Virus record (IMG/VR): IMGVR_UViG_3300045921_000167
Coordinates: 1-40,436 of that record
Length of the DNA: 40,436 nt
Source: a virus
Reading direction: 5' to 3' (one strand)
Position numbers and translations under genes: made by a program. The notes under the pieces were generated by a model. It did no database searches. It had not been told where the DNA came from and saw only the letters and a list, made by a program, of their open reading frames with translations. Shown here in pieces: positions 388-40,258 of this stretch. Within the stretch, counting starts at the first letter, position 1, and the number at the start of each line of letters is the position of its first letter.

Positions 388-434
388 GGTTTTTATGACT
401 ACCGTGACATTTTTATCATTATAGGGAGGTTTTT

Positions 435-5784: not shown

Positions 5785-5954
5785 TAGATTAACTCCCCAC
5801 GGTTTACAGATTGAATTAATTGTTGTTTTGTCCAGTCGCCAAGATATTGTAATGTGGCAATGTCAGCACATTTGTATACACTGTATTGGCCGTTACGCTG
5901 TCGTTTAATTTTGTAGGTTTTTAAACCTATGGTGAGGTAAGTTTGTAGTTTCAT
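5784..5954 (-). CDS. Small hypothetical protein (56 aa, below the ORF-track cutoff)
   Basis: Hand translation gives MKLQTYLTIGLKTYKIKRQRNGQYSVYKCADIATLQYLGDWTKQQLIQSVNRGELI. It has an AGGAAC SD box, and its stop overlaps the next start (TAATG). Confidence 0.4.
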   Translation of the reverse strand: MKLQTYLTIGLKTYKIKRQRNGQYSVYKCADIATLQYLGDWTKQQLIQSVNRGELI

Positions 5955-5991
5955 GATTCATAGTTCCTGTTTAGTTAAAAAATTAAAATAA

Positions 5992-6300: not shown

Positions 6301-6663
6301 TTATTGCCATGCCCTACCGCCTTTTTGCATATAAGGCTTATCCCACTTGCCTAAATCAAATCTAAGGTAATAGTTAGGGATTGAACCATAATCTGGATTA
6401 TCATCAATTTCATATTGCGGCAGTATTTCGAGTATTGTTTCCATGATCTGTTCGCATAAAGAATGCTCATTACTACCATGTTCAAATTGTCTATGGTAAT
6501 GATAGTTCAATCCTTGCTGGTAAGTCTCACCTTCAAACTCCACAAAAGAAGACATAAGCGCAACTCTTAGCGAGTTATAATCTGAAATAACGCTGAATTT
6601 GCAATCAGGGAAACGAGTTTTTAATACTTTGCGTAGTTCTTTTGCTTTTTCTACTATGTTCAT
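6301..6663 (-). CDS. Hypothetical protein (120 aa)
   Basis: Preceded by the conserved AACAGGAACTAAGAATC box, in operon orientation. Confidence 0.55.
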   Translation of the reverse strand: MNIVEKAKELRKVLKTRFPDCKFSVISDYNSLRVALMSSFVEFEGETYQQGLNYHYHRQFEHGSNEHSLCEQIMETILEILPQYEIDDNPDYGSIPNYYLRFDLGKWDKPYMQKGGRAWQ

Positions 6664-6668
6664 GATTC

Positions 6669-6839
6669 TTAGTTCCTGTTAGTTAAATATTGATATCTTT
6701 CTAAAACTTCATAATCAGTTAATAAAAACCCATCTATTCGATAGCATGGACGAAAATTACAGTAAAATTTCTGTTTCTCTACGGCATGGCCTTTTGCCTT
6801 TAATACTTGGATTATTTTTGGTAAATCTTTTAATCGCAT
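6669..6839 (-). CDS. Small hypothetical protein (56 aa, below the ORF-track cutoff)
   Basis: Hand translation gives MRLKDLPKIIQVLKAKGHAVEKQKFYCNFRPCYRIDGFLLTDYEVLERYQYLTNRN. AAGGGGA SD. It fills the gap better than the + strand ORF 6746..6940. Confidence 0.4.
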   Translation of the reverse strand: MRLKDLPKIIQVLKAKGHAVEKQKFYCNFRPCYRIDGFLLTDYEVLERYQYLTNRN

Positions 6840-6851
6840 TCTTTGTTCCCC

Positions 6852-7043
6852 TTAGTGTAAAGCACATATCAAAACAAAACTTACAAGCCATAAGGCGCAG
6901 TAGTTCATGCTGGTATAAGCTATGCCTCTTGATATTTTAGCCCATGTTGGGTAGTTCGTTTCTGTTGTTTGCGATACGTCCCCAAGTAAAAACATAAGGA
7001 AAAACGCAACTGGCAGGCTTAACATGTAAATTTGTTCTATCAT
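6852..7043 (-). CDS. Small membrane protein (63 aa, about 2 TM; start moved to an internal ATG)
   Basis: The ATG at 7043 (MIEQIYML..) is preceded by ACAGGAGCAAAGA. Two hydrophobic segments are present. Confidence 0.45.
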   Translation of the reverse strand: MIEQIYMLSLPVAFFLMFLLGDVSQTTETNYPTWAKISRGIAYTSMNYCALWLVSFVLICALH

Positions 7044-7184
7044 TCTTTGCTCCTGTTTAGTTGAATATCTTGTATGTGCTAATAATATCAAATTTATTTT
7101 AACTTGCAATAATTAATTTGTAACTGAATTGTAAAGTTGATAAAGTGGGCAATTAATATTTAGTTGAATATAAGGATATGACAA
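7044..7184. promoter_or_regulatory. Divergent early control region between the leftward (7043) and rightward (7185) blocks
   Basis: 141-bp AT-rich gap between divergent first genes. The 13-bp direct repeat TTTAGTTGAATAT occurs at 7056-7068 and 7159-7171. Confidence 0.4.
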
Positions 7185-10313: not shown

Positions 10314-10471
10314 TGATGACTGAATTTCAGAAAATTAAACATGAGCTAGAGAAACTCTACGCATTTTTAAATGGTGCTCATTTGGCAACCAATGATGAAA
10401 ATGCCAGTGGTACATTCCATCAAGCATGTCATAAGTTACAGGATATTTTGGGGATGTTTCAGAATGATTGA
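10313..10471 (+). CDS. Small hypothetical protein (52 aa, below the ORF-track cutoff)
   Basis: Hand translation gives MMTEFQKIKHELEKLYAFLNGAHLATNDENASGTFHQACHKLQDILGMFQND. It has a TGATG overlap upstream and an ATGATTGA overlap downstream. Confidence 0.4.
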   Translation: MMTEFQKIKHELEKLYAFLNGAHLATNDENASGTFHQACHKLQDILGMFQND

Positions 10472-11042
10472 CTACATAAAACCAAAAAACAACCCGCCTG
10501 AATATTTTAAAGAAGGCATACATGTATTAATGCTGATTAATAGAGGGGTGCAGAGTAGTAATAAAGGTTCAAAAAGATGGGTAAATAAAATTATTACAAC
10601 CAATCCATTAGAGTACGATAATGCAGTCAGCGCACTGATTTCCATGCAAAATTATTTGAATAACCCAGATATAAGATTATATGCCTCTATTAATGACAGG
10701 AAATTTAATTCCGCTATTAAATTATTCAAACACCAGCAATTGGATTTGCTTCCAGAAAATGAATATAAATTTTATTCAAAAATAAATGATTCATTTTGTA
10801 GTTGTTTAATGCAGCCTGAATGCAGGAATAACAATTTGTTTTTGCTTGATGTTGATTCAAAAGACAGAAAAGAGGTAGACGGATTTTTAATAACCAACTT
10901 TGGAATAAAAATGCACTATATGTACCCGACAATCAATGGATGGCATTACATTGTCGAGCCTTTTAACCCAAAAATGTGTGAATCTATGACAACATTTGAA
11001 GTAAAAAAAGACGCATTAATGTTAATAAATTGGATTGATTGA
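10464..11042 (+). CDS. Hypothetical protein (192 aa) with DxD and GxH motifs; weak primase-polymerase (AEP)-like resemblance
   Basis: The start was moved to MIDYIKPK (ATG 10464), coupled to the upstream ORF. Motifs are NLFLLDVDSKD and, about 30 aa later, INGWHYIVEPF. Confidence 0.5.
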   Translation: MIDYIKPKNNPPEYFKEGIHVLMLINRGVQSSNKGSKRWVNKIITTNPLEYDNAVSALISMQNYLNNPDIRLYASINDRKFNSAIKLFKHQQLDLLPENEYKFYSKINDSFCSCLMQPECRNNNLFLLDVDSKDRKEVDGFLITNFGIKMHYMYPTINGWHYIVEPFNPKMCESMTTFEVKKDALMLINWID

Positions 11043-11045
11043 AAA

Positions 11046-11912
11046 ATGATTGACTACCAAAAACTGAAAGAAGCGCATGAGTTAATGCTTATATTAAGTA
11101 ACAACAATGGATGTTCATTAAGATTAACTTTTTGCGATGGAAAATTTTGGAAATATTTTTTACAGATAAACGACAAAAAAGATATTTTTGAGTTCAATTG
11201 TATTGACGACCTAATCACCAAACTCAAAGAACTAACACAAACAAAACCTAAATATGCACTTGGGGATATAGTTTGGTTATATGACTACTCCATTAATGAG
11301 ATCCAATCTTTCAAAATAGATGCGATAACACTAAAAACATTTAAATATAGCGGGAATTGCATTGAGGATGGGTTTGCGTATGAAGAAATAGCAGAAAAGG
11401 ATATTTACCCTTCCCGCGATGCCCTTATCGATGCGCAAATTGAGTATTGGAAAGGTTTAAAACAAGATAAAGTTGTACCTGTTGAAGAAAGCCAAGAGTC
11501 TAAAATATGCCCTGAGTGCGGTAGTTATTTAGATGCTTATGGGGTATGTTGGCAAACAGGATGTAGCTATATTAAGCCACTTAAGCCAGAAGACATGCAC
11601 CCCAAGTTTGAAGGTGAAGTGAAAGGGTTTAATCATTGCGAACACGATTTTGATGCATTAAAAGATGACGCTAGGTTCCGGTATTTAAGAATGATTAATG
11701 GGTGTGATTATTATATATCACGCTACAAATTCAATAATGAAATATATTGTAGTTGCGGACTTCCAGCCGATGTACCTCATGCTTGTAAATGCCGAAAATG
11801 TGGTGCTGGAAAGATAATGCCGTGTGAGCATGAACAAACAACTGAATATTATTTAGCATATCCATATAAAAAACCTAATAAATGCAAAAAATGCGGGGAG
11901 TTTTATAGATGA
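11046..11912 (+). CDS. Cys-rich zinc-ribbon protein (288 aa)
   Basis: Contains CPECGSYLDAYGVCWQTGC, CKCRKCGAGKIMPC and KCKKCGEF. Confidence 0.55.
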   Translation: MIDYQKLKEAHELMLILSNNNGCSLRLTFCDGKFWKYFLQINDKKDIFEFNCIDDLITKLKELTQTKPKYALGDIVWLYDYSINEIQSFKIDAITLKTFKYSGNCIEDGFAYEEIAEKDIYPSRDALIDAQIEYWKGLKQDKVVPVEESQESKICPECGSYLDAYGVCWQTGCSYIKPLKPEDMHPKFEGEVKGFNHCEHDFDALKDDARFRYLRMINGCDYYISRYKFNNEIYCSCGLPADVPHACKCRKCGAGKIMPCEHEQTTEYYLAYPYKKPNKCKKCGEFYR

Positions 11913-12148
11913 GTGATTTTACAAAGCAAGATTTACAGATGCTTTATAACATGATTATACATGTTAGAAATGACTACCCTGCGCTTATTAATGATAAAGA
12001 CTGTACTGATTTAAAAAATAAAATTAAAGAAAAGATAGAGCGAGAGGAACGCTACGAAAAAACCAAAATTGCTTTCGATAAAATGCGTCAATCTTTGTAT
12101 GAATCATCTCCTGATATTCTTTTAAAAGAAAAAGGCGAAAAGTCATGA
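11909..12148 (+). CDS. Hypothetical protein (79 aa); N-terminus paralogous to 12374..12604
   Basis: ATGA coupling. Starts MSDFTKQDLQML. Confidence 0.5.
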   Translation: MSDFTKQDLQMLYNMIIHVRNDYPALINDKDCTDLKNKIKEKIEREERYEKTKIAFDKMRQSLYESSPDILLKEKGEKS

Positions 12149-12381
12149 CTAAGCATGAAAAGGTTGCCAATATTATCACTTTTTTCGCCATTATGTTTGG
12201 TGAAGATAGTTCCATATGGTCTGAGGTAATGAAATTTAGTCCTGAATATATCATTGAAAAATTTGAAAGGTATGTATTGTCAACAGCAATCGAGAACCCA
12301 TGGAATATGCATCCATTACTAAAAAACACTCGATTTGATGCTTATGTTGATATATGGGGATTGGAGTTAAAAGATGAATGA
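12145..12381 (+). CDS. Hypothetical protein (78 aa)
   Basis: ATGA coupling. Confidence 0.5.
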   Translation: MTKHEKVANIITFFAIMFGEDSSIWSEVMKFSPEYIIEKFERYVLSTAIENPWNMHPLLKNTRFDAYVDIWGLELKDE

Positions 12382-12604
12382 CTTTACGAAAGAAGAATTA
12401 AAGTTATTAGGTGGCTGTGTTTTTAGTAAATTTGTCTCATCTTTAGATGATCCATCAATACATCATTTACAGCCTGATTTAAAAAAATTAAGAGATAATA
12501 TTCAATCCATGATTGAGAACTATTGTGAGCATGAGTGGAGAAGGAGCGCAATTAATGCAATATATTGCCCTTATTGCCAAAAACATGTGGAGTACAGTGA
12601 ATGA
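12374..12604 (+). CDS. Hypothetical protein (76 aa) with a C-terminal CxxC; N-terminus paralogous to 11909..12148
   Basis: Starts MNDFTKEELKLL and contains CPYCQKH. It overlaps both neighbours. Confidence 0.5.
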   Translation: MNDFTKEELKLLGGCVFSKFVSSLDDPSIHHLQPDLKKLRDNIQSMIENYCEHEWRRSAINAIYCPYCQKHVEYSE

Positions 12605-12903
12605 CAATAAAAATAAACAAAGAGCTTTTACAAGAGATAGTTGGGGAATATGCGCAGCAAGAGCGATTTGAAGTAGTGCAAAATGTTATCAGTGATCATG
12701 GTCGTTGGTCTATTTACTATGACTGCACTATCAAAGACAAAGAAACAGGCAAGTTTTATGATGCCTCTTATTCACAAGGAGCAACCGAATCACAAGACGA
12801 ATACCCATTTGAAAACGATGAACCAGATGAAGATGGAAACATTGAGCTTCATGAGGTAGAGCCATATGAGGAAATTGTGACGAAGTTTAGGAGAGTCAAA
12901 TGA
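12601..12903 (+). CDS. Hypothetical acidic protein (100 aa)
   Basis: ATGA coupling. Contains ESQDEYPFENDEPDEDGNIELHEVEPYEE. Confidence 0.5.
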   Translation: MTIKINKELLQEIVGEYAQQERFEVVQNVISDHGRWSIYYDCTIKDKETGKFYDASYSQGATESQDEYPFENDEPDEDGNIELHEVEPYEEIVTKFRRVK

Positions 12904-12979
12904 TGTTAGCAGGTTGCTCGATAGAATAAATACTCAACAATCCGAAGAACTAAAGGAAATAAAGTGAATATTACTCGCA

Positions 12980-13009
12980 TTGAACATCCCTTTTAACTTT
13001 TAATATGCT
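12980..13009 (+). promoter_or_regulatory. Candidate sigma70-type promoter ahead of the packaging/head genes
   Basis: TTGAAC (12980-12985), an 18-nt spacer, then TATGCT (13004-13009). Sequence match only. Confidence 0.25.
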
Positions 13010-13162
13010 ATATTAATAACAGCCCCCTAACTCCGTTGTTGATTTTTAAGCTCATGAAATTAACTTATAGGGGGCAATATCCTAACAATTTAGCAATAAA
13101 TCTTTACATTTCCGCAATAATTAACTTGTTTTTGATCAAATTTTCGTGATAATTTGTCAGCA

Positions 13163-13194
13163 ATGAGTCATTTTTACCCTTGTGGATGACTCAT
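13163..13194. other. 9-bp perfect hairpin 36 nt upstream of TerL
   Basis: ATGAGTCAT (13163-13171) pairs with ATGACTCAT (13186-13194) around a 14-nt loop. A second stem, CCCCCTA/TAGGGGG, lies at 13023-13029 and 13068-13074. Confidence 0.4.
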
Positions 13195-13229
13195 GCGCAT
13201 GGAGCAACTAGGCAAAGGACTGCCCCTTC

Positions 13230-14783
13230 ATGGACAAAATGCAAGCCGAGTTAAAGCGAGCCGAATTGGCTGCGAAACTCAAAGGTAGTTTATTACTATT
13301 CATTCAAGCCTTTTATCCGATACTGACTGGCCGAGATTTTATTATTTCAAAGCCAGTTGGTAGGGAAAGTCATTTCATTACGATTTGTAAAGCATTAACC
13401 AAGTGTTCCAGATTGGAATCTTTAAGGCTTTTGATTAATGTCCCTCCGGGGCATGGTAAATCAACATTAGTAACATTTTGGATTGCATGGTGTATGGCTA
13501 AATGGCCAGATTCAAACTTTTTGTATATTTCTTATTCTAAAACACTGGCTGCTAAACACACTGATTTAGTCAAAAGGATAATGTCTTTATCACAATACAA
13601 GACTTTGTTTGGCGTTAAGTTAAGGGATGACTCACAAGCCAAAGATTCTTTTACGACCGAAAATGGGGGTACAGTCGCAGCTTTCGGTTCTGCTGGTTCG
13701 ATTACTGGTAACAACGCAGGATTGCCCGGACTAGACAGGTTTTCTGGTGCTGTGATTATCGATGATGCTCATAAGCCAGATGAAGTGCATTCTGATTTAA
13801 TTCGCGAAGGCGTCATCAATAATTATAAAGAAACCATCCAACAACGACCTCGCGGTATCAATGTCCCTATTGTGTTCATAGGACAAAGGCTTCATCAAAA
13901 GGATTTGCCAGCCTACTTTATAGATGGGGAAGATGGATATGTCTGGGATAAGGTAATACTGAAGTCTCTTGATGAGGCAGGAAACGCTCTTTATCCAGAG
14001 GCTTTCCCGCTAGAAATGTTGCTTATAAGAAAAGAAAAAGACCGCTATGTATTTGCAGCACAACACCAGCAAGACCCGCAGCCTGCTGGTGGTGGTTTAT
14101 ACATGGAAACGGATTTTGCATTACTTGATTACGAGCCTGAGTATTTAGTCACCTTCATTACTGCTGACACTGCTGAGACAGAAGACCCTCGTAATGATGC
14201 CACTGCATTTTCCTTCTGGGGTTTGTATTACATTGAAACCCAAGGGAGAAAAACAGATGTATTGGGATTGCATTGGATATCCTGTCGTGAAATGCGAGTT
14301 GAGCCAAAGAAACTTGAAGGTGAGTTTTTGGATTTCTGGCAAGATTGTGCAAGACATCCTATGCCTCCTATGCTTGCTTTTATAGAGAAAAAATCAACAG
14401 GGGTAACGCTTGTATCAGTTTTAAAGGACATGCGTGGTCTTAAAGTACGTGAAATAGAGCGCACCAGAGCTTCGGGAAGTAAGTCCCAAAGATTCATTGA
14501 TATTCAGCCATACATAGCAGCAAAACGAGTGTCATTGCCTGTTGATGGTGTACACACAAAAATGTGTATAGAGCATATGACAAAGATTACAAACAACGAC
14601 TCACATGCCCATGATGATATAGCCGATACCGCAAGTGATGCCGTTAATATCGCATTAATGGGTAATTTGCTTTTTGCTTACACTAAAAAGAGTAGCAACT
14701 ATACAAACGCATCAAGAGAAGCAGTAAAAAATTATAAACAACTCATGAACCTTAGAAATAAGGCTTACGTTAAAAGGATTTAA
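13230..14783 (+). CDS. terL: Terminase large subunit
   Basis: Walker A VPPGHGKST and Walker B AVIIDDAHK. Nuclease-domain acidic motifs FITADTAE and HDDIADTASDA. It lies directly upstream of the portal gene. Confidence 0.9.
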   Translation: MDKMQAELKRAELAAKLKGSLLLFIQAFYPILTGRDFIISKPVGRESHFITICKALTKCSRLESLRLLINVPPGHGKSTLVTFWIAWCMAKWPDSNFLYISYSKTLAAKHTDLVKRIMSLSQYKTLFGVKLRDDSQAKDSFTTENGGTVAAFGSAGSITGNNAGLPGLDRFSGAVIIDDAHKPDEVHSDLIREGVINNYKETIQQRPRGINVPIVFIGQRLHQKDLPAYFIDGEDGYVWDKVILKSLDEAGNALYPEAFPLEMLLIRKEKDRYVFAAQHQQDPQPAGGGLYMETDFALLDYEPEYLVTFITADTAETEDPRNDATAFSFWGLYYIETQGRKTDVLGLHWISCREMRVEPKKLEGEFLDFWQDCARHPMPPMLAFIEKKSTGVTLVSVLKDMRGLKVREIERTRASGSKSQRFIDIQPYIAAKRVSLPVDGVHTKMCIEHMTKITNNDSHAHDDIADTASDAVNIALMGNLLFAYTKKSSNYTNASREAVKNYKQLMNLRNKAYVKRI

Positions 14784-32613: not shown

Positions 32614-33146
32614 CACCAGAAGGGCGTTTTCAGCATTGCGTTAACATAATTATTCAGCATGAAGGGGCATTATCGTTACATGCTCGTGATCCCGGTGGAA
32701 TTACTCATTGGGGGGTATCATTGCGATTTTTAAGAACCATAGGATTAGATGTTGATGGTGATAATGATGTTGATGCAGATGACATCATTGCTTTAACACG
32801 TCCCGGAGCTGAACAAATATACCGCAAGCATTGGTGGGATAAATATCATTATGCAGCTTTTAATGAGTTAGTAGTAGTAGAGAAGGTTTTTGATATGGCG
32901 GTCAATATGGGTGGACGTGCTGCTCATAGACTTTTGCAAATAGCTATAAATCGACTCAATGAAAAACCAATTGCTGTTGATGGTATTTTGGGTGGTATCA
33001 CATTCGGAGCAGCCAATAAAACCGATCCTATTGCTTTAAGGCAAGAATTAAGGGAATGCGCCAAGCATAGATATATTGAAATACTATCCAAGAATAAGCA
33101 TCTGGAAGTATTTCGTAAAGGCTGGATGAATAGAGCTGCATTCTAA
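32601..33146 (+). CDS. Endolysin: GH108 muramidase with a PG_binding_3 domain
   Basis: QHEGALSLHARDPGGITHWGVS is the GH108 catalytic region. C-terminal AVDGILGGITFGAANK. Confidence 0.85.
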   Translation: MDELTPEGRFQHCVNIIIQHEGALSLHARDPGGITHWGVSLRFLRTIGLDVDGDNDVDADDIIALTRPGAEQIYRKHWWDKYHYAAFNELVVVEKVFDMAVNMGGRAAHRLLQIAINRLNEKPIAVDGILGGITFGAANKTDPIALRQELRECAKHRYIEILSKNKHLEVFRKGWMNRAAF

Positions 33147-33511
33147 TGCGATTACAGCCAGAAGAAGCCATCATGGTGGCAGTATTTGATTATGTGCGTC
33201 TAATCAAGATGGACAGGTATATTTGGCATATAGCCAATGAACGCAAGACATCTCCTCAGTATGGGCTTAAATTAAAGCGTATGGGCGTTAAGTCTGGTGT
33301 TAGTGATATCTTTGTGGCAATACCAAAGAAAGAGTTTCATGGCCTTTTTATTGAAGTTAAGACAAAGAAAGGAAGACTTACGGAGTCTCAAAAAACATTT
33401 ATTAATGACATGCTGGAAATGGGATATTATGCTGTTGCCTGTTATGGAATTGAGGATGTATTAGACACCCTCAACTGGTATCTTAAATTGCCGAATTTTT
33501 CACAATCTTAA
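33146..33511 (+). CDS. VRR-NUC domain nuclease
   Basis: GVSDIFVAIP...GLFIEVKTKKGRLTESQKTFINDMLEMGYYAVAC is the PD-(D/E)xK VRR-NUC pattern. Confidence 0.8.
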   Translation: MRLQPEEAIMVAVFDYVRLIKMDRYIWHIANERKTSPQYGLKLKRMGVKSGVSDIFVAIPKKEFHGLFIEVKTKKGRLTESQKTFINDMLEMGYYAVACYGIEDVLDTLNWYLKLPNFSQS

Positions 33512-33851
33512 GAGGTTTTTCATCTTCTGGAATTTCAGGATCAGCAGCATAAAGCAATGCTGACAATTGCGCATAGTTTAGGTTTCTCAAAGATTTAATA
33601 CCCTTTTTTACCTTAAGTTTTTCTCTATCAAATCTTTTGTAATATAAAACAAATCCATTTGTGTCCCAAAACAAGCATTTAATTTTATCCATGTTTTTAT
33701 TGTAAAAAACATAAATAGAGCCATCATACAAATGCGTTTCTTTATTTGATTTAATTAATGCTGACAATGAATCTATCGACATTCTAAAATCAATAGGCTC
33801 CCCAGCAAGATAAATCTTCCTTTGGTCGGCAGGTAATAAAATATTTTCCAT
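33483..33851 (-). CDS. IS66 Orf2 (TnpB_IS66)-like protein
   Basis: RKIYLAGEPIDFRMSIDSLSALI..DGSIYVFYNKNMDKIKCLFWDTNGFVLYYKRFDREKL...LNYAQLSALL aligns by eye along its full length to IS66-family Orf2 (e.g. IWL..DMR.G.NGLA..GHLFIF..R.D.IKVLW.D.DG.CLF.KRLERG.F.....L..AQLSMLL). Confidence 0.8.
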   Translation of the reverse strand: MENILLPADQRKIYLAGEPIDFRMSIDSLSALIKSNKETHLYDGSIYVFYNKNMDKIKCLFWDTNGFVLYYKRFDREKLKVKKGIKSLRNLNYAQLSALLYAADPEIPEDEKPLKIVKNSAI

Positions 33852-34409
33852 TTAAATCTCCATCATAAAATTAATAATCTTTGCAAGTCGTTCTGGTTGA
33901 ATTTTGTTGTAAAACGATATTTTAATGTCCTGATTAACCATAACTGATATTTCATTTGATTTTGGTATAACAGTTGAATCAGGTTCTTCCTGTTTGACTG
34001 GGACGACTTTTTCAGGAAGGGACTCTTGTTCAGGTTCTAATTTTAGAAATTGCATAGCACTCTCGTCATTTGTTAATTCATATATAATATTCATCCAGCG
34101 AATCCATGTAGACACTATTTCAAGTCGAGATTTTTTTATATTATGAATCTTCATGAATTCTGATTTAGAAATAATAGAGTCTCTGCTATTCCATAAAAGA
34201 GCTATTCTGATTTCTTCTTTTTTGCGATGTTCTTTCTCAATTCCCCATGGGTAGAGCCTGTAAAAGGTATTTCTTGCTTTGTCGATATCTAATTTATATT
34301 TATTGCAATATTCGGGGAGGGATATAGGTAAATCCCTCTTTTCTATTTCAAACCGTTTTCTTTCATTCCAGTAAAATATTAATTCATCATCAGTTATAGA
34401 TTGTGCCAT
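33852..34409 (-). CDS. IS66 Orf1-like accessory protein candidate (185 aa)
   Basis: Its stop abuts the Orf2-like start (TAAATG). The C-terminal EISVMVNQDIKISFYNKIQPERLAKIINFMMEI resembles the conserved C-terminal beta-hairpin plus helix of IS66 Orf1. The N-terminus is unrelated to anything I recognise. Confidence 0.45.
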   Translation of the reverse strand: MAQSITDDELIFYWNERKRFEIEKRDLPISLPEYCNKYKLDIDKARNTFYRLYPWGIEKEHRKKEEIRIALLWNSRDSIISKSEFMKIHNIKKSRLEIVSTWIRWMNIIYELTNDESAMQFLKLEPEQESLPEKVVPVKQEEPDSTVIPKSNEISVMVNQDIKISFYNKIQPERLAKIINFMMEI

Positions 34410-34427
34410 TCATTGCTCCATTAATGC

Positions 34428-34796
34428 CTAAAAAGGCAATTCATCATTCTCAGGATATTTTGATTCGTTTTTTTGACTGCTCTTTGGTATTAATTTAATT
34501 TCCTTTGCAATAACAGAAAATTTAATCCGATCAGAACCATCCTGACCCTTGTACTTTTGGGAATCCATTGCACCATTAACGTACAACAAATCTCCTTCGT
34601 GCACATACTTTGTGACAATTTCAGATAATTTTCCATAGAGAACCACATTGTGCCACATAGACTTCTCTTGCTTTTCCCCATTTTTCATGGTTTTTTCAGT
34701 AGTAACCATACTGACATTAGAGACAGGAGTTCCTTGTGGCAATGTGCGCGTGTCAATTTTCCCAACACGACCTAAAATTTGTGCAAAATTAATCAT
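34428..34796 (-). CDS. ssb: Single-stranded DNA-binding protein
   Basis: OB-fold pattern (ILGRVGKID...WHNVVLYGKLSEI..YV.EGDLLYVNG) and an acidic C-terminal tip NDELPF. Confidence 0.85.
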   Translation of the reverse strand: MINFAQILGRVGKIDTRTLPQGTPVSNVSMVTTEKTMKNGEKQEKSMWHNVVLYGKLSEIVTKYVHEGDLLYVNGAMDSQKYKGQDGSDRIKFSVIAKEIKLIPKSSQKNESKYPENDELPF

Positions 34797-35800
34797 TATG
34801 CTTTCCTCAATTGAGTGATAAAGTGATCGGCTATTTCAGGTGTCATGGATTCTATCGACTCACATTCATAGTATTTTAATGCTTTCTGTATGCGGTCTTC
34901 TGAAATTTGTTTGCCTTCAATAAAAGTATAAATATCTTTCAATTGCTTATCACTCAACCTTCTATTTTCACTAGAGCTATGATGTGTTTCATTTTCTTGT
35001 GCTCCAGTCTCGCCCAATTCAACAGACTTTGAGTTCTCAATTGTCTGCGCCTCAGCATATTGATCCGAATCCTGTGAAGATAAATCCTGATTAATTTCAT
35101 TCGTTTCTCCTTTTTTAGTTAAAATATCCTTTTTAAGCATTTCTGTTCGTGAAGGAGCAGAAGTATCAATGACAGCATATTCAGCTTCAATATAATCCTG
35201 TACTTCCTCAACACATTTAAGACCTTTTAGAGCGTCTGCAAAAGTGTCTCGTAGAGCAAATGCTCTGGCTCTCATCTGCAACATGCGAGCAGTATGATCA
35301 GTCCATACTCCGGGCTTCCCAAGCAGTTTCGCTTTCTTAGCATCCTCAAGAGTATAGCATCTTGTCTTATCTGCTCTGTTTTTGCGTTTAACAGTGCATT
35401 TAAATCCACTTAAAGTTTCCCCGGTATAAATTGGCTCCTCAATAACATCAATACATTCAGGGTGATTGAGTACCAAAGCCAACATACCATCTCCGTATAA
35501 ACAAGGCTTGCCATTAATTACAGCAATATCCTGTATGGCTTGCTCAATAGGCAATCCTAACTGATAGCCCATGGCCATTGCCACAAAGATATCAGCCGGC
35601 TTTCCTATGTACTGCTTAGGAACAAGGCTAGATTTCGATAAGTATTCAGCTATTTTCCTAAAATGCTCTGCATGTTCTGGTGCAAATAGACTATCAAAAA
35701 CCTTTTCTCTTTTCTGTGCCAATTCTTTGCGCAATTCTGCAATATGCGAATTAAGAACAGCAACATTTTTAACCAACTCCTGTACGGCTAATTCATTCAT
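34796..35800 (-). CDS. RecT/Red-beta-superfamily single-strand annealing protein
   Basis: GLPIEQAIQDIAVINGKPCLYGDGMLALV and GVWTDHTARMLQMRARAFALRDTFADAL (compare Bet GPWQSHPKRMLRHKA..ARLAFG). It sits between the exonuclease and SSB genes. Confidence 0.75.
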   Translation of the reverse strand: MNELAVQELVKNVAVLNSHIAELRKELAQKREKVFDSLFAPEHAEHFRKIAEYLSKSSLVPKQYIGKPADIFVAMAMGYQLGLPIEQAIQDIAVINGKPCLYGDGMLALVLNHPECIDVIEEPIYTGETLSGFKCTVKRKNRADKTRCYTLEDAKKAKLLGKPGVWTDHTARMLQMRARAFALRDTFADALKGLKCVEEVQDYIEAEYAVIDTSAPSRTEMLKKDILTKKGETNEINQDLSSQDSDQYAEAQTIENSKSVELGETGAQENETHHSSSENRRLSDKQLKDIYTFIEGKQISEDRIQKALKYYECESIESMTPEIADHFITQLRKA

Positions 35801-35804
35801 CTTT

Positions 35805-36638
35805 CTATCCTTTTAAAGTGAATACTCTTGTCCCTTTTTTATTGGCTTTCCATGTGGCCAAAATCTCGCCTTCCAAATCCACTAAATATTCAGCATTTCC
35901 CATATGCTGCATTAGCTTCATCTTGTAGTGTTCTTCTTTATCCGAAAGCCTCTTAAGTTCCATTTTAACATTCATTAACGAAGCATAATCCTGCTTTGCT
36001 TTGAATGTGGCTTCAGCCATTAAATCAGGCTTTGGATTATTGTATTTTAACCTGCAATCAGTAATTGAAACTGGTTCTGGCTCAATCCTACGCTGCACAC
36101 AATCCCAAAACTTTAAATCCGACTCCAGTATAAGTTTTTCTAATTCAGTGTCACGCTCGTAGGTGAACTGCATGTATTCATAACCACCTATCAGAACAGC
36201 GCAAAACCCTTTTGAAGCATTCTTAACCGCAACCTGTTTAGCTATCTGGATAAGATAAGTTAATGGAATACCATCCTCATAAGCACTATCCCATTCCTTC
36301 CTCATGAATGAATTAGCCATTTTCGCTTCAACTACAGCATCCATCGATGGAATATAACCATCCAGATTTGCAAAAATAAAAGGGTAATCTGGGTGATAAA
36401 TTGTGTCAGGAAACTCTATCTCAACATTATTTACCTCACCAAACCTTTGAACGATCAAAGGCTCAATCCTGTTTCCCCAGTACTGCAAATCCGTTACTTC
36501 ATCTTCAGGGGTAATAATCCCCGTTTTTTCCAAGTACAATTGGTATGGTGTTTTGTAGCTAGAATAGCCCATAATAACGGGCGAATCAGACGCACCAATA
36601 CCATTTACACGGTTTTTTCGTTGCTCATCCGTTAGCAT
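35805..36638 (-). CDS. YqaJ-type (lambda Exo-like) recombination exonuclease
   Basis: The ATG at 36638 follows AGGAG. Contains NGIGASDSPVIMGYSSYKTPYQLYLEKTG and VVEAKMAN. Confidence 0.8.
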   Translation of the reverse strand: MLTDEQRKNRVNGIGASDSPVIMGYSSYKTPYQLYLEKTGIITPEDEVTDLQYWGNRIEPLIVQRFGEVNNVEIEFPDTIYHPDYPFIFANLDGYIPSMDAVVEAKMANSFMRKEWDSAYEDGIPLTYLIQIAKQVAVKNASKGFCAVLIGGYEYMQFTYERDTELEKLILESDLKFWDCVQRRIEPEPVSITDCRLKYNNPKPDLMAEATFKAKQDYASLMNVKMELKRLSDKEEHYKMKLMQHMGNAEYLVDLEGEILATWKANKKGTRVFTLKG

Positions 36639-36725
36639 TTCGACTCCTGTCGTATATGTTAAATAAAAATTTATTTTAATCAATTAAATTTTAATTTATT
36701 ATACCCTGATTTGAGAGACAGTAAC
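36639..36725. promoter_or_regulatory. Divergent control region between the recombination operon (-) and the cro-like operon (+)
   Basis: 87-bp, almost pure AT gap between divergent first genes. It holds only low-complexity AT palindromes (AAATAAA aa TTTATTT; TTAAT ca ATTAA). Confidence 0.4.
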
Positions 36726-36965
36726 ATGACAATAGATGAAGTGATTGCTTACTTTGGCAATTTGAATAGAGTTATGAAGGCACTGGGACTGGCCTCACAA
36801 AATATGACAGCATGGAAACGTAATGGCTATATCCCTCTGTTGCAGCAATATCGCATTGCAGAGTTAACAGGTGGCGCATTAATGCCAGATGATGATGATC
36901 CAAAGTTTTCTAAACAAAGGAAAAGAGAATTATTAACAAAAGGAAGTAATTATGAAAAAAGGTAA
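36726..36965 (+). CDS. Cro / YdaS-family HTH regulator
   Basis: The start was moved to MTIDEVIAYFGN. Contains VMKALGLASQNMTAWKRNGYIPLLQQYRIAELTGGAL, the YdaS/Cro-like pattern. Confidence 0.65.
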   Translation: MTIDEVIAYFGNLNRVMKALGLASQNMTAWKRNGYIPLLQQYRIAELTGGALMPDDDDPKFSKQRKRELLTKGSNYEKR

Positions 36966-37785
36966 ATTATTGGCTATAAGCGCACTGGTATTGGGATTAA
37001 ATGCTTGCGAGAGAGTTCCTCCGGGGTATCGAGGTGTGATGGTAAGCATGATGGGGAATGGGAAAGGAGTAAATGAGCAGTCTGTAGGAGTTGGATGGCA
37101 ATACACGGGGTTTTATAGCCAATTATTTTTATTTCCAACTTTCCTGCAAAATCATTCTTGGATAGATGAAGAAGCCATTTCTATGCAAACATCTGAAGGA
37201 CTATCTATCACGACAGCAGCAGGAATAACCTATCAAATTAAAGAAGAAAACGTCGTTAAAGTTTTTACTAAATACAGACGTGGAATTAAAGAAATTACTT
37301 CCATTTTTTTGCATAACATGGTTAGAGATGCCATGAATGAAGTCGCTAGCACTATGACAGTTGATCAGATTTATGGAGCCAAAAAAGAATATTTTATTGA
37401 ACAAGTAAGCAAAAAAGTTATAAGAGATGCCTCAAAGAATGGCATAGATGTCGATAAAATTTATTTAATTGGCTCTTTTATTTTGCCACCATCTGTTAAA
37501 GATGCCATTGACGCAAAAATTCAAGCATCACAAAACGCTGTAAAAGTGGAAAACGAGATTCAAACCAGCAAAGCAGAAGCCCAAAAAAGAATAGTTGATG
37601 CAGAAGCCAGAGCAAAGCAAATATTAATTAATGCAGAATCACAAGCTAAAGCTAATAAAATCTTGGCAGAATCATTGACTCCAGAATTTGTTCAATACCA
37701 AGCAATTTTAAAATGGAATGGCAAATTGCCTACAACTAACGCCTCAAATGCCGTTCCTTTTCTGAACATAGGCAGCAAACCATGA
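36952..37785 (+). CDS. SPFH/Band-7 (prohibitin-like) domain lipoprotein
   Basis: Signal peptide with lipobox-like LGLNAC. The SPFH core starts at PPGYRGVMV. C-terminal coiled coil AEAQKRIVDAEARAKQILINAESQAKANKILAESLTPEFVQYQAI. Confidence 0.75.
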   Translation: MKKGKLLAISALVLGLNACERVPPGYRGVMVSMMGNGKGVNEQSVGVGWQYTGFYSQLFLFPTFLQNHSWIDEEAISMQTSEGLSITTAAGITYQIKEENVVKVFTKYRRGIKEITSIFLHNMVRDAMNEVASTMTVDQIYGAKKEYFIEQVSKKVIRDASKNGIDVDKIYLIGSFILPPSVKDAIDAKIQASQNAVKVENEIQTSKAEAQKRIVDAEARAKQILINAESQAKANKILAESLTPEFVQYQAILKWNGKLPTTNASNAVPFLNIGSKP

Positions 37786-38003
37786 GATCGATCATATATA
37801 GGATTTTGTTTTATTTATTTGGCTTGATCATGATCCAAGGCTGCATTTTGCCTTGGGTTATCTCGAATGCCATTTTACCTGCACCAGTTAACATAGGGAT
37901 TGTCTGTTTAATTGTTTTATTTTGGTTTTATATGATTGAGCTTTTAATAAAAAGAATTAATAAATTATCCAAGGACGATGAAGATGCTACTAATCAACGA
38001 TAA
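37782..38003 (+). CDS. Small 2-TM membrane protein with a charged tail
   Basis: ATGA coupling to the SPFH gene. Contains ILFYLFGLIMIQGCILPWV and IGIVCLIVLFWFYMIELLI. Confidence 0.55.
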   Translation: MRSIIYRILFYLFGLIMIQGCILPWVISNAILPAPVNIGIVCLIVLFWFYMIELLIKRINKLSKDDEDATNQR

Positions 38004-38799
38004 ACCAGTGAATTATTTTTTCTTTCCAGCAGGTGAGATACAAGTAAGATTGCCGGAGATTGAAACAGAACGTGTCATTTTGACATCACTTCCTAAATCT
38101 TCCGATGATATTATGTTGATAATGCTGGTTGTTAATGCATTAAAGCAGCAGGGAATTACTGATATTGATTTGGATTTATTATATTTGCCTTATGCAAGAC
38201 AAGACCGAGTGTGCTCGAAAGGCGAGGCATTCAGTCTTGAGGTCATGGCAGATATTTTGAATTGGTTGTCTATCAATGTGCGATTATATGATGTCCATAG
38301 CAATACTTCTTTGGATTTAATTCATTACAATTCCCATATCTCTGTTTCAAATATATTTAAACGCTATGGGATTTTGGATAGATATAATTTAGAAAACATT
38401 ATTTTTGTTCAACCTGACAAGGGTTCCTCTGAGAAATTATTTAATTTGTGCATCAATTTAAATTTATCAAATACACTACTTCAGTGTGATAAAGTACGTG
38501 ACCCTTCTACAGGGCATATTATCAGGTATGAAGTCCCCCCATTTAATAATTACAAAGATATATTTGTCATTGATGACATTTGTGATGGTGGAGCAACCTT
38601 TTTGAAGCTCGGTGAGGAGTTAAAGCAGCGTGGCGCAAGATATATGATTCTTTACGTTACGCATGGCATTTTCAGTCAGGGATTAAGTCAATTAAGGCAG
38701 TATTATGATGAAATAATTTGCCATCATGTATTCGATCCTCTTTTGGAGAAATCGAAAGAATTAACTGTTTTAAGGAAAATACACAATGTTAATTGTTAA
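37978..38799 (+). CDS. Ribose-phosphate pyrophosphokinase (Prs)-family protein; candidate ADPR-pyrophosphate synthetase (Adps) of NARP1
   Basis: LLYLPYARQDR (Prs YARQDR motif) and VIDDICDGGATF (PRPP/ribose-phosphate loop). Length is 273 aa. The start may be 37984. Confidence 0.7.
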   Translation: MKMLLINDKPVNYFFFPAGEIQVRLPEIETERVILTSLPKSSDDIMLIMLVVNALKQQGITDIDLDLLYLPYARQDRVCSKGEAFSLEVMADILNWLSINVRLYDVHSNTSLDLIHYNSHISVSNIFKRYGILDRYNLENIIFVQPDKGSSEKLFNLCINLNLSNTLLQCDKVRDPSTGHIIRYEVPPFNNYKDIFVIDDICDGGATFLKLGEELKQRGARYMILYVTHGIFSQGLSQLRQYYDEIICHHVFDPLLEKSKELTVLRKIHNVNC

Positions 38800-40258
38800 C
38801 CCACTTTATGCAATAGATTTTTACAAAGCAGACCATAGAAGCCAATATCCTAAAGGAACAACTGAAATCTATTCAAACTTTACACCAAGGTATGTAAAAA
38901 CTGAATTGCCATTTTTTGACAATAAAGTCGTGGTATATGGAATACAAAACATGATTCAGGAGTTCTTGGATTATCAGTGGGCAAATATAAGCGATATATC
39001 AATCTTGGGTTACAGGAATTTAATGAAAACCTCTTTAGGGGCTAAGGATTTTGACATAAGCCATTTAAGAGCATTAAAAGACCTTGGCTATTTACCAATA
39101 TCGATTAAGGCACTTCCTGAAGGTACAAGGTGTCCCATTGGTGTTCCCCTACTAACCATACGCAACACTCACCCGGAGTTTTTTTGGTTTACAAATTACT
39201 TGGAAACAGCTATTTCCTCTATGCTATGGAAGCCAATCACAGTAGCTACAATTGCATTTCACCTGAAGGTTATCGTCAAAAAATTTGCTTTATTAACTGG
39301 TGGTGATCCGGGATTTTGCGATTTTCAGGTTCATGATTTCAGTTTCCGTGGTATGTCAGGAATTGAAGATGCTATTCGGTGTGGAGTAGCCCACTTAACG
39401 AGTTTCAAAGGAACCGATTGCGTTCCAGCTATCCCTTATATTCAACGATATTTTGGGCAAGATGAAAGCAATCTTGGGTTTTCTGTTCCTGCAACTGAAC
39501 ATAGTGTCATGACATGTGCAGGAAGGGACAAAGAGCGTGATACAGTTTATCGATTGATTACTGAAACATATCCTGAAGGCATTGTATCGATTGTTGCGGA
39601 TTCATATGACTTTTGGGGATTTTTAGCAAATATATTGCCAAGTATGTATAAAGAAATCATGGAGCGCAATGGCAAGCTCGTTATAAGGCCAGATTCAGGT
39701 GATCCATTTAAGATTATTTGTGGTGATCCAGATTCAGAAGACCCCTTTGAAAAGAAAGGTGCTCTAAGGCTTTTATGGGATCAATTTGGTGGAACGATTA
39801 ACAATGCAGGATTTCGTGTTTTAGATTCGCACATAGGGTTAATTTACGGGGATTCAATTACACCATCACTTGCACATAGAATTTTGCAGCAAATGGCTGA
39901 TATGGGGTTTTGCTCTCAAAATATTGTTTTTGGCGTAGGTTCTTACACCTACCAATACATGACAAGAGATACGTTTGGTTTTGCAATGAAAGCAACAAGT
40001 GCGGTTATTGGTGGCCAGCGTCAAGCAATTTACAAAGATCCAAAAACATCAAACGGTAGCAAAAAATCAGCAAAAGGTTTGATTTATGTTGGAAAAGACA
40101 CGAAAGGTGAGTATTTCATGAAAGAAGATGTCACAGAAGAATTAGAATCCAAAGGAGAATTACAAGAGGTTTATAGGGATGGAAATTTATTAAACAAGCA
40201 AACTTTTATTCGTATTAGAGAGCGATTAAGCCTTGAAGTTGAAAGGCTAACCGGGTAG
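38786..40258 (+). CDS. NAMPT-family phosphoribosyltransferase; candidate nicotinamide ADPR-transferase (Namat) of NARP1, or NadV
   Basis: Contains DFYKADHRSQYPKGTTEIYSNFTPR, DFSFRGMSG, ATEHSVM, IRPDSGDP and FGVGSYTYQ. It overlaps the Prs-like gene by 14 nt. Confidence 0.85.
   Translation: MLIVNPLYAIDFYKADHRSQYPKGTTEIYSNFTPRYVKTELPFFDNKVVVYGIQNMIQEFLDYQWANISDISILGYRNLMKTSLGAKDFDISHLRALKDLGYLPISIKALPEGTRCPIGVPLLTIRNTHPEFFWFTNYLETAISSMLWKPITVATIAFHLKVIVKKFALLTGGDPGFCDFQVHDFSFRGMSGIEDAIRCGVAHLTSFKGTDCVPAIPYIQRYFGQDESNLGFSVPATEHSVMTCAGRDKERDTVYRLITETYPEGIVSIVADSYDFWGFLANILPSMYKEIMERNGKLVIRPDSGDPFKIICGDPDSEDPFEKKGALRLLWDQFGGTINNAGFRVLDSHIGLIYGDSITPSLAHRILQQMADMGFCSQNIVFGVGSYTYQYMTRDTFGFAMKATSAVIGGQRQAIYKDPKTSNGSKKSAKGLIYVGKDTKGEYFMKEDVTEELESKGELQEVYRDGNLLNKQTFIRIRERLSLEVERLTG

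What the first reader, a model, noticed from the sequence alone, without database searches (positions are those of the whole stretch)
33483..34409. Orphan IS66 Orf1/Orf2-like accessory pair, without transposase, embedded in the Exo-annealase-SSB recombination operon
Seen in sequence:
- The 122-aa ORF aligns by eye end to end with IS66-family Orf2 ('TnpB_IS66').
- The abutting 185-aa ORF (TAAATG junction) has an IS66 Orf1-like C-terminus.
- Both are co-oriented and tightly packed behind exo, the annealase gene and ssb.
- No Orf3 DDE transposase follows. The next sequence is the convergent 3' end of the VRR-NUC gene, which overlaps Orf2 by 29 nt.
- I saw no IS-type terminal inverted repeats.

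Established knowledge: IS66 elements normally carry orf1-orf2-orf3, and the function of Orf1/Orf2 is poorly understood.

Inference: the pair looks domesticated as part of a phage recombination or DNA-transaction module rather than being an IS remnant. That could shed light on what these accessory proteins do, for example DNA-end or recombination-intermediate handling, or hijacking and defence functions.
Basis: partly seen in the sequence, partly recalled or inferred. Interest (0 to 1): 0.65.

Follow-up and report, generated by a model that had tools for sequence, protein, structure and literature searches.

The report
Transposase-less IS66 TnpA/TnpB pair in phages
Two small genes in this phage descend from the two helper genes of IS66 insertion sequences, but they belong to a phage-only lineage that has lost the transposase and is kept by selection, so the helper proteins must do something without transposition, and what that is remains unknown.

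Summary
Orf2 (33483-33851, minus strand) is a clear IS66 TnpB (Pfam E 1e-26). Orf1 (33852-34409, minus strand) abuts it (TAAATG). There is no DDE transposase, no transposase fragment and no IS66 inverted repeat.

The pair is not an IS remnant. Both genes are under purifying selection (dN/dS 0.02-0.05 and 0.24-0.31). They belong to a monophyletic phage clade of 41 distinct TnpB-like genes. Each is preceded at -4 to +4 nt by an Orf1-like gene of 156-373 aa, and none is followed by TnpC. Orf1 is a TnpA derivative with two HTH repeats, a linker and a conserved C-terminal tail.

The proposed link to recombination is not general. Only the window lineage has the pair behind exo-recT-ssb. Relatives with the same operon layout lack it there. 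In 25 of 41 cases the pair lies 9-2807 nt upstream of the large terminase gene, and some close relatives lack it altogether.

Best reading: an accessory two-protein DNA-binding module taken over from IS66, with a fast-evolving specificity subunit (Orf1) and a conserved core (Orf2). Its cellular role is unresolved. I found no description of such a clade in the searchable literature.

The parts
33483..33851 (-). Orf2, 122 aa: TnpB_IS66-like core protein and the earliest-branching member of the phage clade
   Evidence: PF05717 E 1.2e-26. NF033819 86 bits. 154.8 bits to a phage-clade HMM built without the window, against 129.0 bits to a canonical IS66 TnpB HMM. dN/dS 0.02-0.05. NJ tree.
33852..34409 (-). 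Orf1, 185 aa: TnpA-derived partner protein (F1 family)
   Evidence: An HMM of the genes upstream of phage TnpB-like genes matches Orf1 end to end at 69.6 bits, E 2e-23, against 6.9 bits to a canonical TnpA HMM. 225 family clusters in 1.84e9 representative proteins. dN/dS 0.24-0.31.
34254..34391 (-). Orf1 residues 7-52: first three-helix HTH-like unit
   Evidence: hhalign of the F1 profile against the canonical IS66 TnpA N-terminal HTH: probability 95.8%, E 7e-9. Helices 7-26, 31-37 and 42-52 in the AF2 model.
34068..34241 (-). Orf1 residues 57-114: second HTH-like unit, an internal duplication
   Evidence: hhalign against the same TnpA HTH: probability 93%, E 3.5e-7. Helices 57-74, 82-89 and 93-114.
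33960..34067 (-). Orf1 residues 115-150: low-complexity, probably disordered linker that starts with the conserved MxFxxV motif
   Evidence: pLDDT below 50. F121 is the only invariant column of alignment A3. Length varies across the family.
33855..33959 (-). Orf1 residues 151-185: C-terminal beta-hairpin plus helix tail, the best-conserved part and the inferred docking site for Orf2
   Evidence: Mean column conservation 0.66 against 0.36 for the HTH units. Colinear with the canonical TnpA tail: hhalign E 0.019, NCBIfam E 0.038. BLASTP E 1e-4 to the tail of the L009 partner.
33849..33861 (-). Orf1 stop / Orf2 start junction (TAAATG) with GGAG 6 nt upstream of the Orf2 ATG; inferred translational coupling
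   Evidence: Sequence. In 35 of 38 family pairs the junction is -4, -1 or 0 nt, as in canonical IS66 tnpA-tnpB.
33483..33511 (.). 29-nt overlap between the 3' ends of Orf2 and the convergent VRR-NUC gene
   Evidence: This stretch is 99-100% identical between lineages, unlike the rest of the pair.
33551..34450 (.). Local divergence island that coincides with the pair
   Evidence: Nucleotide identity of the window to L001 and L002 is 80-91% here and 97-100% in the flanks. dS is 0.2-0.9 for the pair and 0.09-0.18 for recT, ssb and vrr. GC dips to 0.29-0.32 against 0.37-0.40.
34428..36683 (-). Context: exo (YqaJ, 35805-36683), recT (34796-35800) and ssb (34428-34796), the early-left operon of which the pair forms the distal end
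   Evidence: Pfam and PHROG hits. 18 nt separate the ssb stop from the Orf1 start. No terminator-like site between them on the minus strand.
33146..33511 (+). Context: convergent VRR-NUC gene, the last gene of the rightward late/lysis unit
   Evidence: PF08774 E 1e-8 and phrog_824 E 1e-35.

Best explanation
The pair is a transposase-independent derivative of the IS66 tnpA-tnpB helper operon that a lineage of uncultivated temperate phages has taken over. These phages have a P22-like portal and a phrog_38 large terminase.

Shown:
- Orf2 keeps the conserved TnpB core.
- Orf1 is a TnpA relative in which the N-terminal HTH is duplicated and the C-terminal tail is retained.
- The two genes are always adjacent.
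- There is never a TnpC or an IS end next to them.
- Both genes are under purifying selection.
- The pair is present in most but not all related phages, and at different genome positions.

Inferred mechanism:
- Orf1 and Orf2 are translationally coupled and made together as the last products of the early-left transcript.
- The conserved beta-hairpin/helix tail of Orf1 docks on the highly conserved Orf2.
- The two fast-evolving HTH units of Orf1 give sequence-specific DNA recognition.
- The complex therefore acts as a DNA-bound two-subunit module: a variable specificity subunit plus a constant core. It reuses whatever TnpA-TnpB does at IS66 ends, but without cutting or moving DNA.

It is an accessory, allele-diverse function and not a core part of the phage life cycle. 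It has no demonstrated tie to Exo/RecT/SSB recombination. Which DNA transaction it modulates is not resolved. Candidates are the switch to packaging or late expression, and conflict with other mobile elements or host defences.
For: Family assignment:
- Orf2.
- Orf1 to the F1 family.
- F1 to canonical TnpA: HTH probability 95.8% and 93%, and Legionella TnpA hits the F1 HMM at E 1.6e-6.

Phage-only, TnpC-less clade:
- 37 IMG/VR contigs plus unbiased look-ups.
- 41 distinct genes with the partner upstream: 38 detected automatically, the other 3 explained by a start-codon call, a frameshift and a contig end. TnpC hits: 0.
- The clade is monophyletic in the NJ tree.
- Canonical IS66 controls in bacteria show tnpA of about 100-130 aa (most 100-112), tnpB of about 121 aa, tnpC of 510-565 aa and GTAAGCGCC inverted repeats.

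Selection: dN/dS 0.02-0.05 for Orf2 and 0.24-0.31 for Orf1.

Variable adaptor with a constant core:
- Median pairwise identity is 27% for F1 and 71% for F2.
- The tail is the best-conserved part of F1.
- The same pattern holds among the three window-lineage alleles.
- The divergence island has sharp edges.

Accessory status:
- Five contigs of 39-52 kb with the same TerL (76-81% identity) have no TnpB-like gene.
- Position varies.

Coupling: junction statistics and the GGAG sites.
Against: - There is no direct evidence that Orf1 binds DNA or binds Orf2. The AF2 monomer models are only moderate (pLDDT 60 and 68, with the tail below 50) and no multimer prediction was possible.
- Foldseek and PDB sequence searches gave no informative match for either protein, so the biochemical activity of the TnpB core stays unknown.
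- The phage clade has replaced four basic residues that are conserved in canonical TnpB: R5L, R17S, K24M and R27D. The ancestral activity may therefore have changed.
- One relative (L064) has an Orf1-like gene without Orf2.
- No candidate binding-site repeats were found.
- The NJ tree has no support values. The window Orf2 is only about 26 bits closer to the phage profile than to the canonical profile.
Confidence: 0.6

Rival explanations
1. The pair belongs to the phage recombination module. Orf1 and Orf2 would handle DNA ends or recombination intermediates together with Exo, RecT and SSB.
For: The pair is co-oriented and tightly packed behind exo-recT-ssb in the window and in two sister lineages. 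It is probably co-transcribed with them, since no terminator lies between.
Against: None of the 12 RecT-related or 27 VRR-NUC-related loci has the pair. In L115 ssb directly faces vrr-nuc. The other 40 clade members sit elsewhere, mostly upstream of TerL and away from any exo/recT gene within the loci read. The pair has a different divergence history from recT and ssb.
Confidence: 0.08
2. The pair works at the switch to packaging or late expression. It would be a pac-site or terminase specificity factor, or an activator of the late operon.
For: In 25 of 41 cases TerL lies 9-2807 nt downstream on the same strand. In L018, L021, L046 and L264 the pair is the immediate upstream neighbour of TerL. 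No recognisable small terminase was found in the window or in the close TerL group. Orf1 has HTH domains and evolves fast, as small terminases and regulators do.
Against: An Sf6-like small terminase (PF20901, E 1e-25 to 1e-31) coexists with the pair in L046 and L049, and an F22-family homologue of it lies in L045 and on the contig of L034/L086. F1 shows no profile similarity to that terminase: probability 0.6%. Five near-complete relatives with the same TerL lack the pair. In the window the pair is 20 kb from TerL. Accessory genes (RNA ligase, phosphatase-like, F3) often separate the pair from TerL.
Confidence: 0.13
3. The pair is a conflict module of an accessory locus. It could be anti-defence, superinfection exclusion, or a toxin-antitoxin-like pair in which Orf1 is an HTH antitoxin with a C-terminal neutralising tail and Orf2 is the conserved effector.
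For: Presence varies among close relatives. There is a sharp divergence island and a GC dip. The upstream partner evolves fast and the downstream partner is conserved. The genes are closely apposed and probably coupled. An orphan Orf1-like gene exists but no orphan Orf2. In relatives the pair lies among RNA-ligase, phosphatase-like and F3 accessory genes, and in the window it lies near NAD-salvage genes.
Against: There is no significant hit in PADLOC: the best is KwaB at 16 bits, E 1e-3. In relatives the pair is embedded in operons with 1-4 nt overlaps and has no promoter of its own. Canonical TnpB is reported to be needed for IS66 transposition and is not known as a toxin (my own knowledge: Han et al. 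2001).
Confidence: 0.15
4. The pair is a decayed or non-autonomous IS66 insertion. Either TnpC was lost recently, or the pair is moved in trans by a host IS66 transposase.
For: GC dips over the pair. The pair sits at the junction of two convergent transcription units, a common insertion site. The nearest canonical relatives are Legionella-type IS66 elements. Real IS66 insertions do occur in phages such as Pseudomonas phage Marin, Streptococcus phiStag1 and Leptospira LE1.
Against: There is no TnpC fragment and no inverted repeats, while positive controls show both. Only 18 nt and -29 nt of flank are available. dN/dS is far below 1. The same TnpC-less architecture occurs in 41 distinct genes that form one clade. 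Orf1 has a derived two-HTH architecture not seen in canonical TnpA.
Confidence: 0.04

Closest known systems
IS66-family insertion sequences (tnpA-tnpB-tnpC, e.g. IS66, IS679, ISRel24; here the Legionella israelensis plasmid copy, L265)
   Same: Orf2 passes the curated TnpB models. It shares the core P.DFR...GL...G..Y.F.N...KIKCLFW..NGFVLYYK with canonical TnpB. Orf1 shares the TnpA HTH and tail. The tnpA-tnpB gene order and the coupled junction are the same.
   Different: There is no DDE transposase TnpC, no GTAAGCG terminal repeats and only one copy. Orf1 is 185 aa with a duplicated HTH, against about 100-130 aa (most 100-112) with one HTH. Four conserved basic residues of TnpB are replaced. 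The pair is embedded in phage operons.
Genuine IS66 insertions in phage genomes (Pseudomonas phage Marin, Streptococcus phage phiStag1, Leptospira phage LE1)
   Same: A TnpB_IS66 gene inside a phage genome.
   Different: Those copies are about 30% identical to Orf2, are followed by TnpC and are ordinary IS copies. No deposited phage genome in the phage collection searched carries the TnpC-less clade.
IS66-family elements that consist of TnpC only (ISBst12 group; my own knowledge of ISfinder, not tested)
   Same: They show that the three IS66 genes can be uncoupled.
   Different: This is the reverse case. There the transposase works without helpers. Here the helpers persist without the transposase.
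Type II toxin-antitoxin operons (architecture only)
   Same: A fast-evolving upstream HTH protein with a flexible linker and a conserved C-terminal tail, followed by a closely apposed, highly conserved partner of about 120 aa. Patchy distribution in mobile elements.
   Different: There is no sequence or fold similarity to any known toxin or antitoxin. No own promoter is evident.
Sf6/P22-type small terminase
   Same: The usual position just upstream of the large terminase, and an HTH-containing protein of 150-200 aa.
   Different: No profile similarity. The pair coexists with a true Sf6-like small terminase in L046 and L049 and is absent from some phages with the same TerL.

Membership tests
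IS66-family insertion sequence (complete or decayed element) | TnpB (PF05717 / NF033819) accessory protein | tested here: met
   93 bits against a cutoff of 26.6, and 86 bits against a cutoff of 50.
IS66-family insertion sequence (complete or decayed element) | TnpA accessory protein of about 100-130 aa directly upstream and coupled to tnpB | tested here: inconclusive
   Orf1 is upstream and abutting, but it scores below the curated threshold (14.6 bits against 74) and only 6.9 bits to a canonical TnpA HMM. Homology shows only at profile level. The architecture is derived: 185 aa with two HTH units.
IS66-family insertion sequence (complete or decayed element) | DDE transposase TnpC (about 500-560 aa) downstream of tnpB, or recognisable remnants of it | tested here: not met
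   The TnpC HMM gives no hit in the window or in 100 related loci, while controls score 368 and 170 bits. The best tblastn hit is E 0.014, inside exo on the wrong strand.
IS66-family insertion sequence (complete or decayed element) | Terminal inverted repeats of about 15-30 bp that begin GTAAGCG | tested here: not met
   Canonical controls give 15-19 of 20 matches with GTAAGCGCC. The window lineage and 12 other phage pairs give 13-15 of 20 AT-rich matches with no GTAAGCG. No GTAAGCGC-like site with at most one mismatch lies between 33156 and 36975.
IS66-family insertion sequence (complete or decayed element) | 8-bp target-site duplication and multiple copies per genome | not testable with these tools
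   No element ends can be defined. The pair is single-copy in the window.
Phage TnpC-less TnpA/TnpB clade (defined here) | TnpB-like protein that scores higher to the phage-clade profile than to the canonical IS66 profile and groups with phage sequences | tested here: met
   154.8 against 129.0 bits, with the window left out of the profile. It is the basal branch of a 35-tip monophyletic group (NJ, no support values).
Phage TnpC-less TnpA/TnpB clade (defined here) | Upstream partner of the F1 family: two HTH repeats, MxFxxV, and the tail ..IE..I..G.KV......I...K.IKIIE.LK.L | tested here: met
   End-to-end match at 69.6 bits, E 2e-23. Alignment A3.
Phage TnpC-less TnpA/TnpB clade (defined here) | Located in a phage genome, co-oriented with neighbouring genes, with no transposase | tested here: met
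   The window encodes TerL, a P22-like portal, tail, lysis, integrase and DnaB genes. No TnpC.
Phage TnpC-less TnpA/TnpB clade (defined here) | Usual position 0-3 kb upstream of the large terminase gene | tested here: not met
   In the window the pair lies about 20 kb from TerL, between ssb and vrr-nuc. This is a lineage-specific relocation and so not a defining feature.
Small terminase (Sf6/P22 type) | Sequence or profile similarity to known small terminase families | tested here: not met
   No Pfam or PHROG small-terminase hit for Orf1 or Orf1-like proteins. hhalign probability 0.6%.
Known anti-phage defence systems (PADLOC) | Significant match to a defence protein model | tested here: not met
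   The best hit is KwaB at 16 bits, E 1.3e-3, for Orf2. Orf1 has none.

The most novel reading that the evidence does not exclude
The IS66 TnpA-TnpB unit has a biochemical activity of its own that needs no transposase, and phages have captured it as a programmable DNA-targeting module. In this reading Orf1's interchangeable HTH units choose the site and Orf2 is a constant effector. In the TerL group that lacks any recognisable small terminase, the module may mark the genome for packaging or discriminate against competing DNA. If so, these phages would be a natural separation-of-function experiment that reveals what the long-unexplained IS66 helper proteins do.
Probability: 0.15. Interest if true: 0.85.

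Novelty: new variant of a known kind. Interest (0 to 1): 0.6.

Why it matters
- The roles of IS66 TnpA and TnpB are still undefined (my own knowledge; seven full-text literature searches here found nothing mechanistic).
- A conserved, selected clade that lacks the transposase shows that the two helpers form a functional unit of their own. It also gives a simple system for testing that unit: two small genes in a 40-kb phage.
- The contrast between the variable HTH part of Orf1 and its conserved tail and partner predicts which part gives specificity and which part forms the interface.
- These genes are routinely labelled 'transposase' or 'integration and excision' (PHROG 623, JGI names). That label would wrongly suggest IS insertions or transposable phages in viromes.

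Tried and rejected
- **Structure.** AF2 models of Orf2 (pLDDT 68) and Orf1 (pLDDT 60) were searched with Foldseek against PDB and BFVD. No match had E below 1e-3 and TM-scores were at most about 0.35. A PDB profile search gave nothing.
- **Small-terminase idea.** Rejected as a general explanation, for three reasons:
  - it coexists with an Sf6-like small terminase;
  - it shows no profile similarity to one;
  - relatives with the same TerL lack the pair.
- **F3 family.** This family sits directly upstream of TerL in relatives and was considered as a small terminase. I rejected it from its motif (IFVFGSN..HGKGAA..SYAIPTK), which does not look like a small terminase. It has no Pfam hit and is absent from the window.
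- **IS ends.** No inverted or direct repeats bound the pair. The 18-nt perfect inverted repeat at 33304/35577 comes from identical codons for 'DIFVA' in two genes and is not conserved in L001.
- **Empty-site boundaries.** Nucleotide-level comparison of L063 with L060 failed because the region is too diverged.
- **Deposited phages.** No nucleotide similarity to any deposited phage. The closest TerL of an isolated phage is about 33% identical.
- **Word-indexed search.** A profile of Orf1-like proteins returned only 6 proteins. The full HMM scan was needed.
- **Defence models.** Nothing significant.
- **Host.** Not identified. The window has no tRNA gene.
Full report
**1. Observation**

The two ORFs exist exactly as described.
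- Orf2 (33483-33851, minus strand, 122 aa) matches Pfam TnpB_IS66 at E 1.2e-26 over nearly the whole profile, and NCBIfam IS66_TnpB at 86 bits against a cutoff of 50.
- Orf1 (33852-34409, minus strand, 185 aa) abuts it. TAA is followed at once by ATG, and each start has GGAG 6 nt upstream.
- Orf1 has no Pfam or PHROG hit. Its only hit is a sub-threshold one to an IS66 TnpA model through its C-terminal half (E 0.038).
- Exo (YqaJ), RecT and SSB lie directly upstream on the same strand. The convergent VRR-NUC gene overlaps Orf2 by 29 nt.
- GC falls to 0.29-0.32 over the pair, against 0.37-0.40 around it.

**2. Not an IS, complete or decayed**

I took canonical IS66 elements from bacterial genomes as controls.
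- They have tnpA of about 100-130 aa (most 100-112), tnpB of about 121 aa and tnpC of 510-565 aa.
- Their inverted repeats begin GTAAGCGCC and match at 15-19 of 20 positions.

An HMM of 30 of these TnpC proteins finds the transposases of real IS66 copies in Pseudomonas phage Marin and a Streptococcus phage (368 and 170 bits). It finds nothing in the window or in about 100 related loci, and tblastn finds no fragment. The flanks of the pair, in the window lineage and in twelve other phages, show only chance-level AT-rich matches.

Across the three lineages that share the locus, dN/dS is 0.02-0.05 for Orf2 and 0.24-0.31 for Orf1. Both genes are therefore maintained by selection.

**3. What the pair belongs to**

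- The closest relatives of Orf2 (48-57% identity, 115-121 aa) are not in IS elements.
- Unbiased contig look-ups and two scans of IMG/VR give 41 distinct TnpB-like genes.
- 38 of them have an ORF of 156-373 aa ending within 4 nt of the TnpB-like start. In 35 of the 38 the junction is -4, -1 or 0 nt.
- The other three are explained by a start-codon call, a frameshift and a contig end.
- None is followed by TnpC.

An HMM of these upstream ORFs matches the window's Orf1 from end to end (69.6 bits, E 2e-23). A canonical TnpA HMM gives 6.9 bits. A full HMM scan of 1.84 billion representative proteins finds 225 clusters of this partner family, nearly all 165-225 aa.

Profile-profile comparison shows that the family carries two copies of the IS66 TnpA HTH (probability 95.8% and 93%). 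It also shows a colinear but weakly scoring C-terminal tail. Legionella TnpA proteins hit the family HMM at E about 1e-6. Orf1 is therefore a TnpA derivative with a duplicated HTH.

In an NJ tree the phage TnpB-like proteins form one clade with no IS66 sequence inside it. The window is the earliest branch, and Legionellaceae IS66 is the nearest canonical relative. The tree has no support values. The margin between profiles is modest: 154.8 bits to the phage profile and 129.0 to the canonical one.

**4. Context**

These phages share the window's large terminase (74-81% identity in the close group) and its P22-like portal.
- In 25 of 41 cases the terminase gene lies 9-2807 nt downstream of the pair on the same strand. 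An RNA-ligase-like gene, a phosphatase-like gene and a gene of the uncharacterised F3 family often lie between them.
- Only the window, L001 and L002-L008 have the pair behind exo-recT-ssb.
- Twelve RecT-related and 27 VRR-NUC-related viral loci lack it.
- In L115, which has the same layout (cro divergent from exo-recT-ssb, with vrr-nuc convergent), ssb faces vrr-nuc across 8 nt.
- Five contigs of 39-52 kb with the same terminase have no TnpB-like gene at all, as far as the pattern-based scan can tell.

The pair is therefore accessory and changes position. Its recombination context in the window is lineage-specific.

**5. Clues to how it works**

- The partner family evolves much faster than the TnpB-like protein: median pairwise identity is 27% against 71%.
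- Within the partner, the C-terminal tail is the most conserved part (0.66) and the HTH units the least (0.36).
- The same pattern holds among the three alleles of the window lineage.
- The AF2 model of Orf1 shows two three-helix units, a disordered linker, and a beta-hairpin plus helix of low confidence. A segment that folds only on a partner would look like this.
- The Orf2 model has a beta-alpha-beta-beta-beta core at pLDDT 75-88.
- Between near-identical genomes, the pair forms a sharply bounded island of 80-91% nucleotide identity. The flanks are 97-100% identical. Specificity or conflict loci typically look like this.
- Compared with canonical TnpB, the phage clade keeps the core motif but has replaced four conserved basic residues.

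From these points I infer a two-subunit complex. Orf1 recognises DNA through variable HTH units and holds the constant Orf2 through its tail. This is inference. Neither DNA binding nor complex formation has been shown.

**6. Alternatives**

- *Small terminase or late regulator.* The usual position of the pair suggests this, and no small terminase is recognisable in this group. Against it:
  - an Sf6-type small terminase coexists with the pair in L046 and L049;
  - there is no profile similarity to one;
  - some relatives lack the pair.
- *Conflict module.* An anti-defence, exclusion or toxin-antitoxin-like role fits the patchy distribution and the divergence island. No database supports it.
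- *Non-autonomous IS.* Essentially excluded.

**7. Novelty**

No deposited phage genome carries this clade. Seven full-text literature searches found no description of TnpC-less phage TnpA/TnpB pairs and no mechanistic work on IS66 TnpB.

I rate the pair a new variant of a known kind: IS66 helper proteins taken over by phages. The role of the helper proteins is a long-open question, and this pair makes it testable. The mechanism remains unknown.

Noticed in passing
window 36952-40258 (+): A Band_7/SPFH protein, a PRPP-synthetase-like protein (273 aa) and a NAMPT (490 aa) lie next to the early region. This is a phage-borne NAD-salvage pair of the kind linked to countering NAD-depleting defences (that link is my own knowledge).
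   Followed up: partly
window 12904-13229 and upstream ORFs 10371-12903: No recognisable small terminase lies upstream of the large terminase (13230-14783). There is a 327-nt non-coding gap, and the nearest ORF (100 aa, phrog_6343) has no known function. The same is true across the close TerL group.
   Followed up: partly
window 33304-33321 and 35577-35594: A perfect 18-nt inverted repeat with one arm inside VRR-NUC and the other inside RecT. Both arms encode the peptide DIFVA with identical codons. Only one arm is intact in L001, so it is probably coincidence.
   Followed up: yes
window 383-461; 5948-5979, 6657-6688 and 7034-7065: Three repeats at 20-nt spacing (AGGTTTTTATGAyTA), and three copies of a 32-nt motif upstream of minus-strand early genes. 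They may be operator, iteron or shared translation-start elements.
   Followed up: no
window ends (1 and 40436) compared with L001: The gene order in L001 runs from the window's start-proximal genes (DnaB and its neighbours) straight into NAMPT at the window's end. The window therefore appears to be a complete, circularly permuted genome of about 40.4 kb from a temperate phage with an integrase (4130-5278, minus strand).
   Followed up: partly
L064:337-1485: An Orf1-like protein with four HTH repeats (382 aa) and the conserved tail, but no TnpB-like gene after it. It is the only partner without a core protein that I saw.
   Followed up: no
L012-L015, about 4430-5000: The Orf1-like gene is split into two overlapping frames (162 aa and 79 aa) in all four loci read (L012-L015; the adjacent TnpB-like protein is on 13 contigs). 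This could be a frameshift mutation, a sequencing error or programmed frameshifting.
   Followed up: no
L025, L030, L083, L096, L103 (TerL ORFs of 793-894 aa): Several relatives have large terminase ORFs 280-380 aa longer than the usual 518 aa. That suggests an intein or another inserted domain.
   Followed up: no
relatives, directly upstream of TerL (e.g. L040:3257-3664): A conserved family of 120-182 aa (IFVFGSN..GIHGKGAA..SYAIPTK..IGCGLAG) occupies the slot just before the terminase gene in 38 loci. It has no Pfam hit and is absent from the window.
   Followed up: partly
L262:1428-2122: A Fic-domain gene with a small TraY-like gene upstream of it sits on the opposite strand among early genes of a pair-bearing relative. 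It is probably a toxin-antitoxin or host-modifying accessory locus.
   Followed up: no
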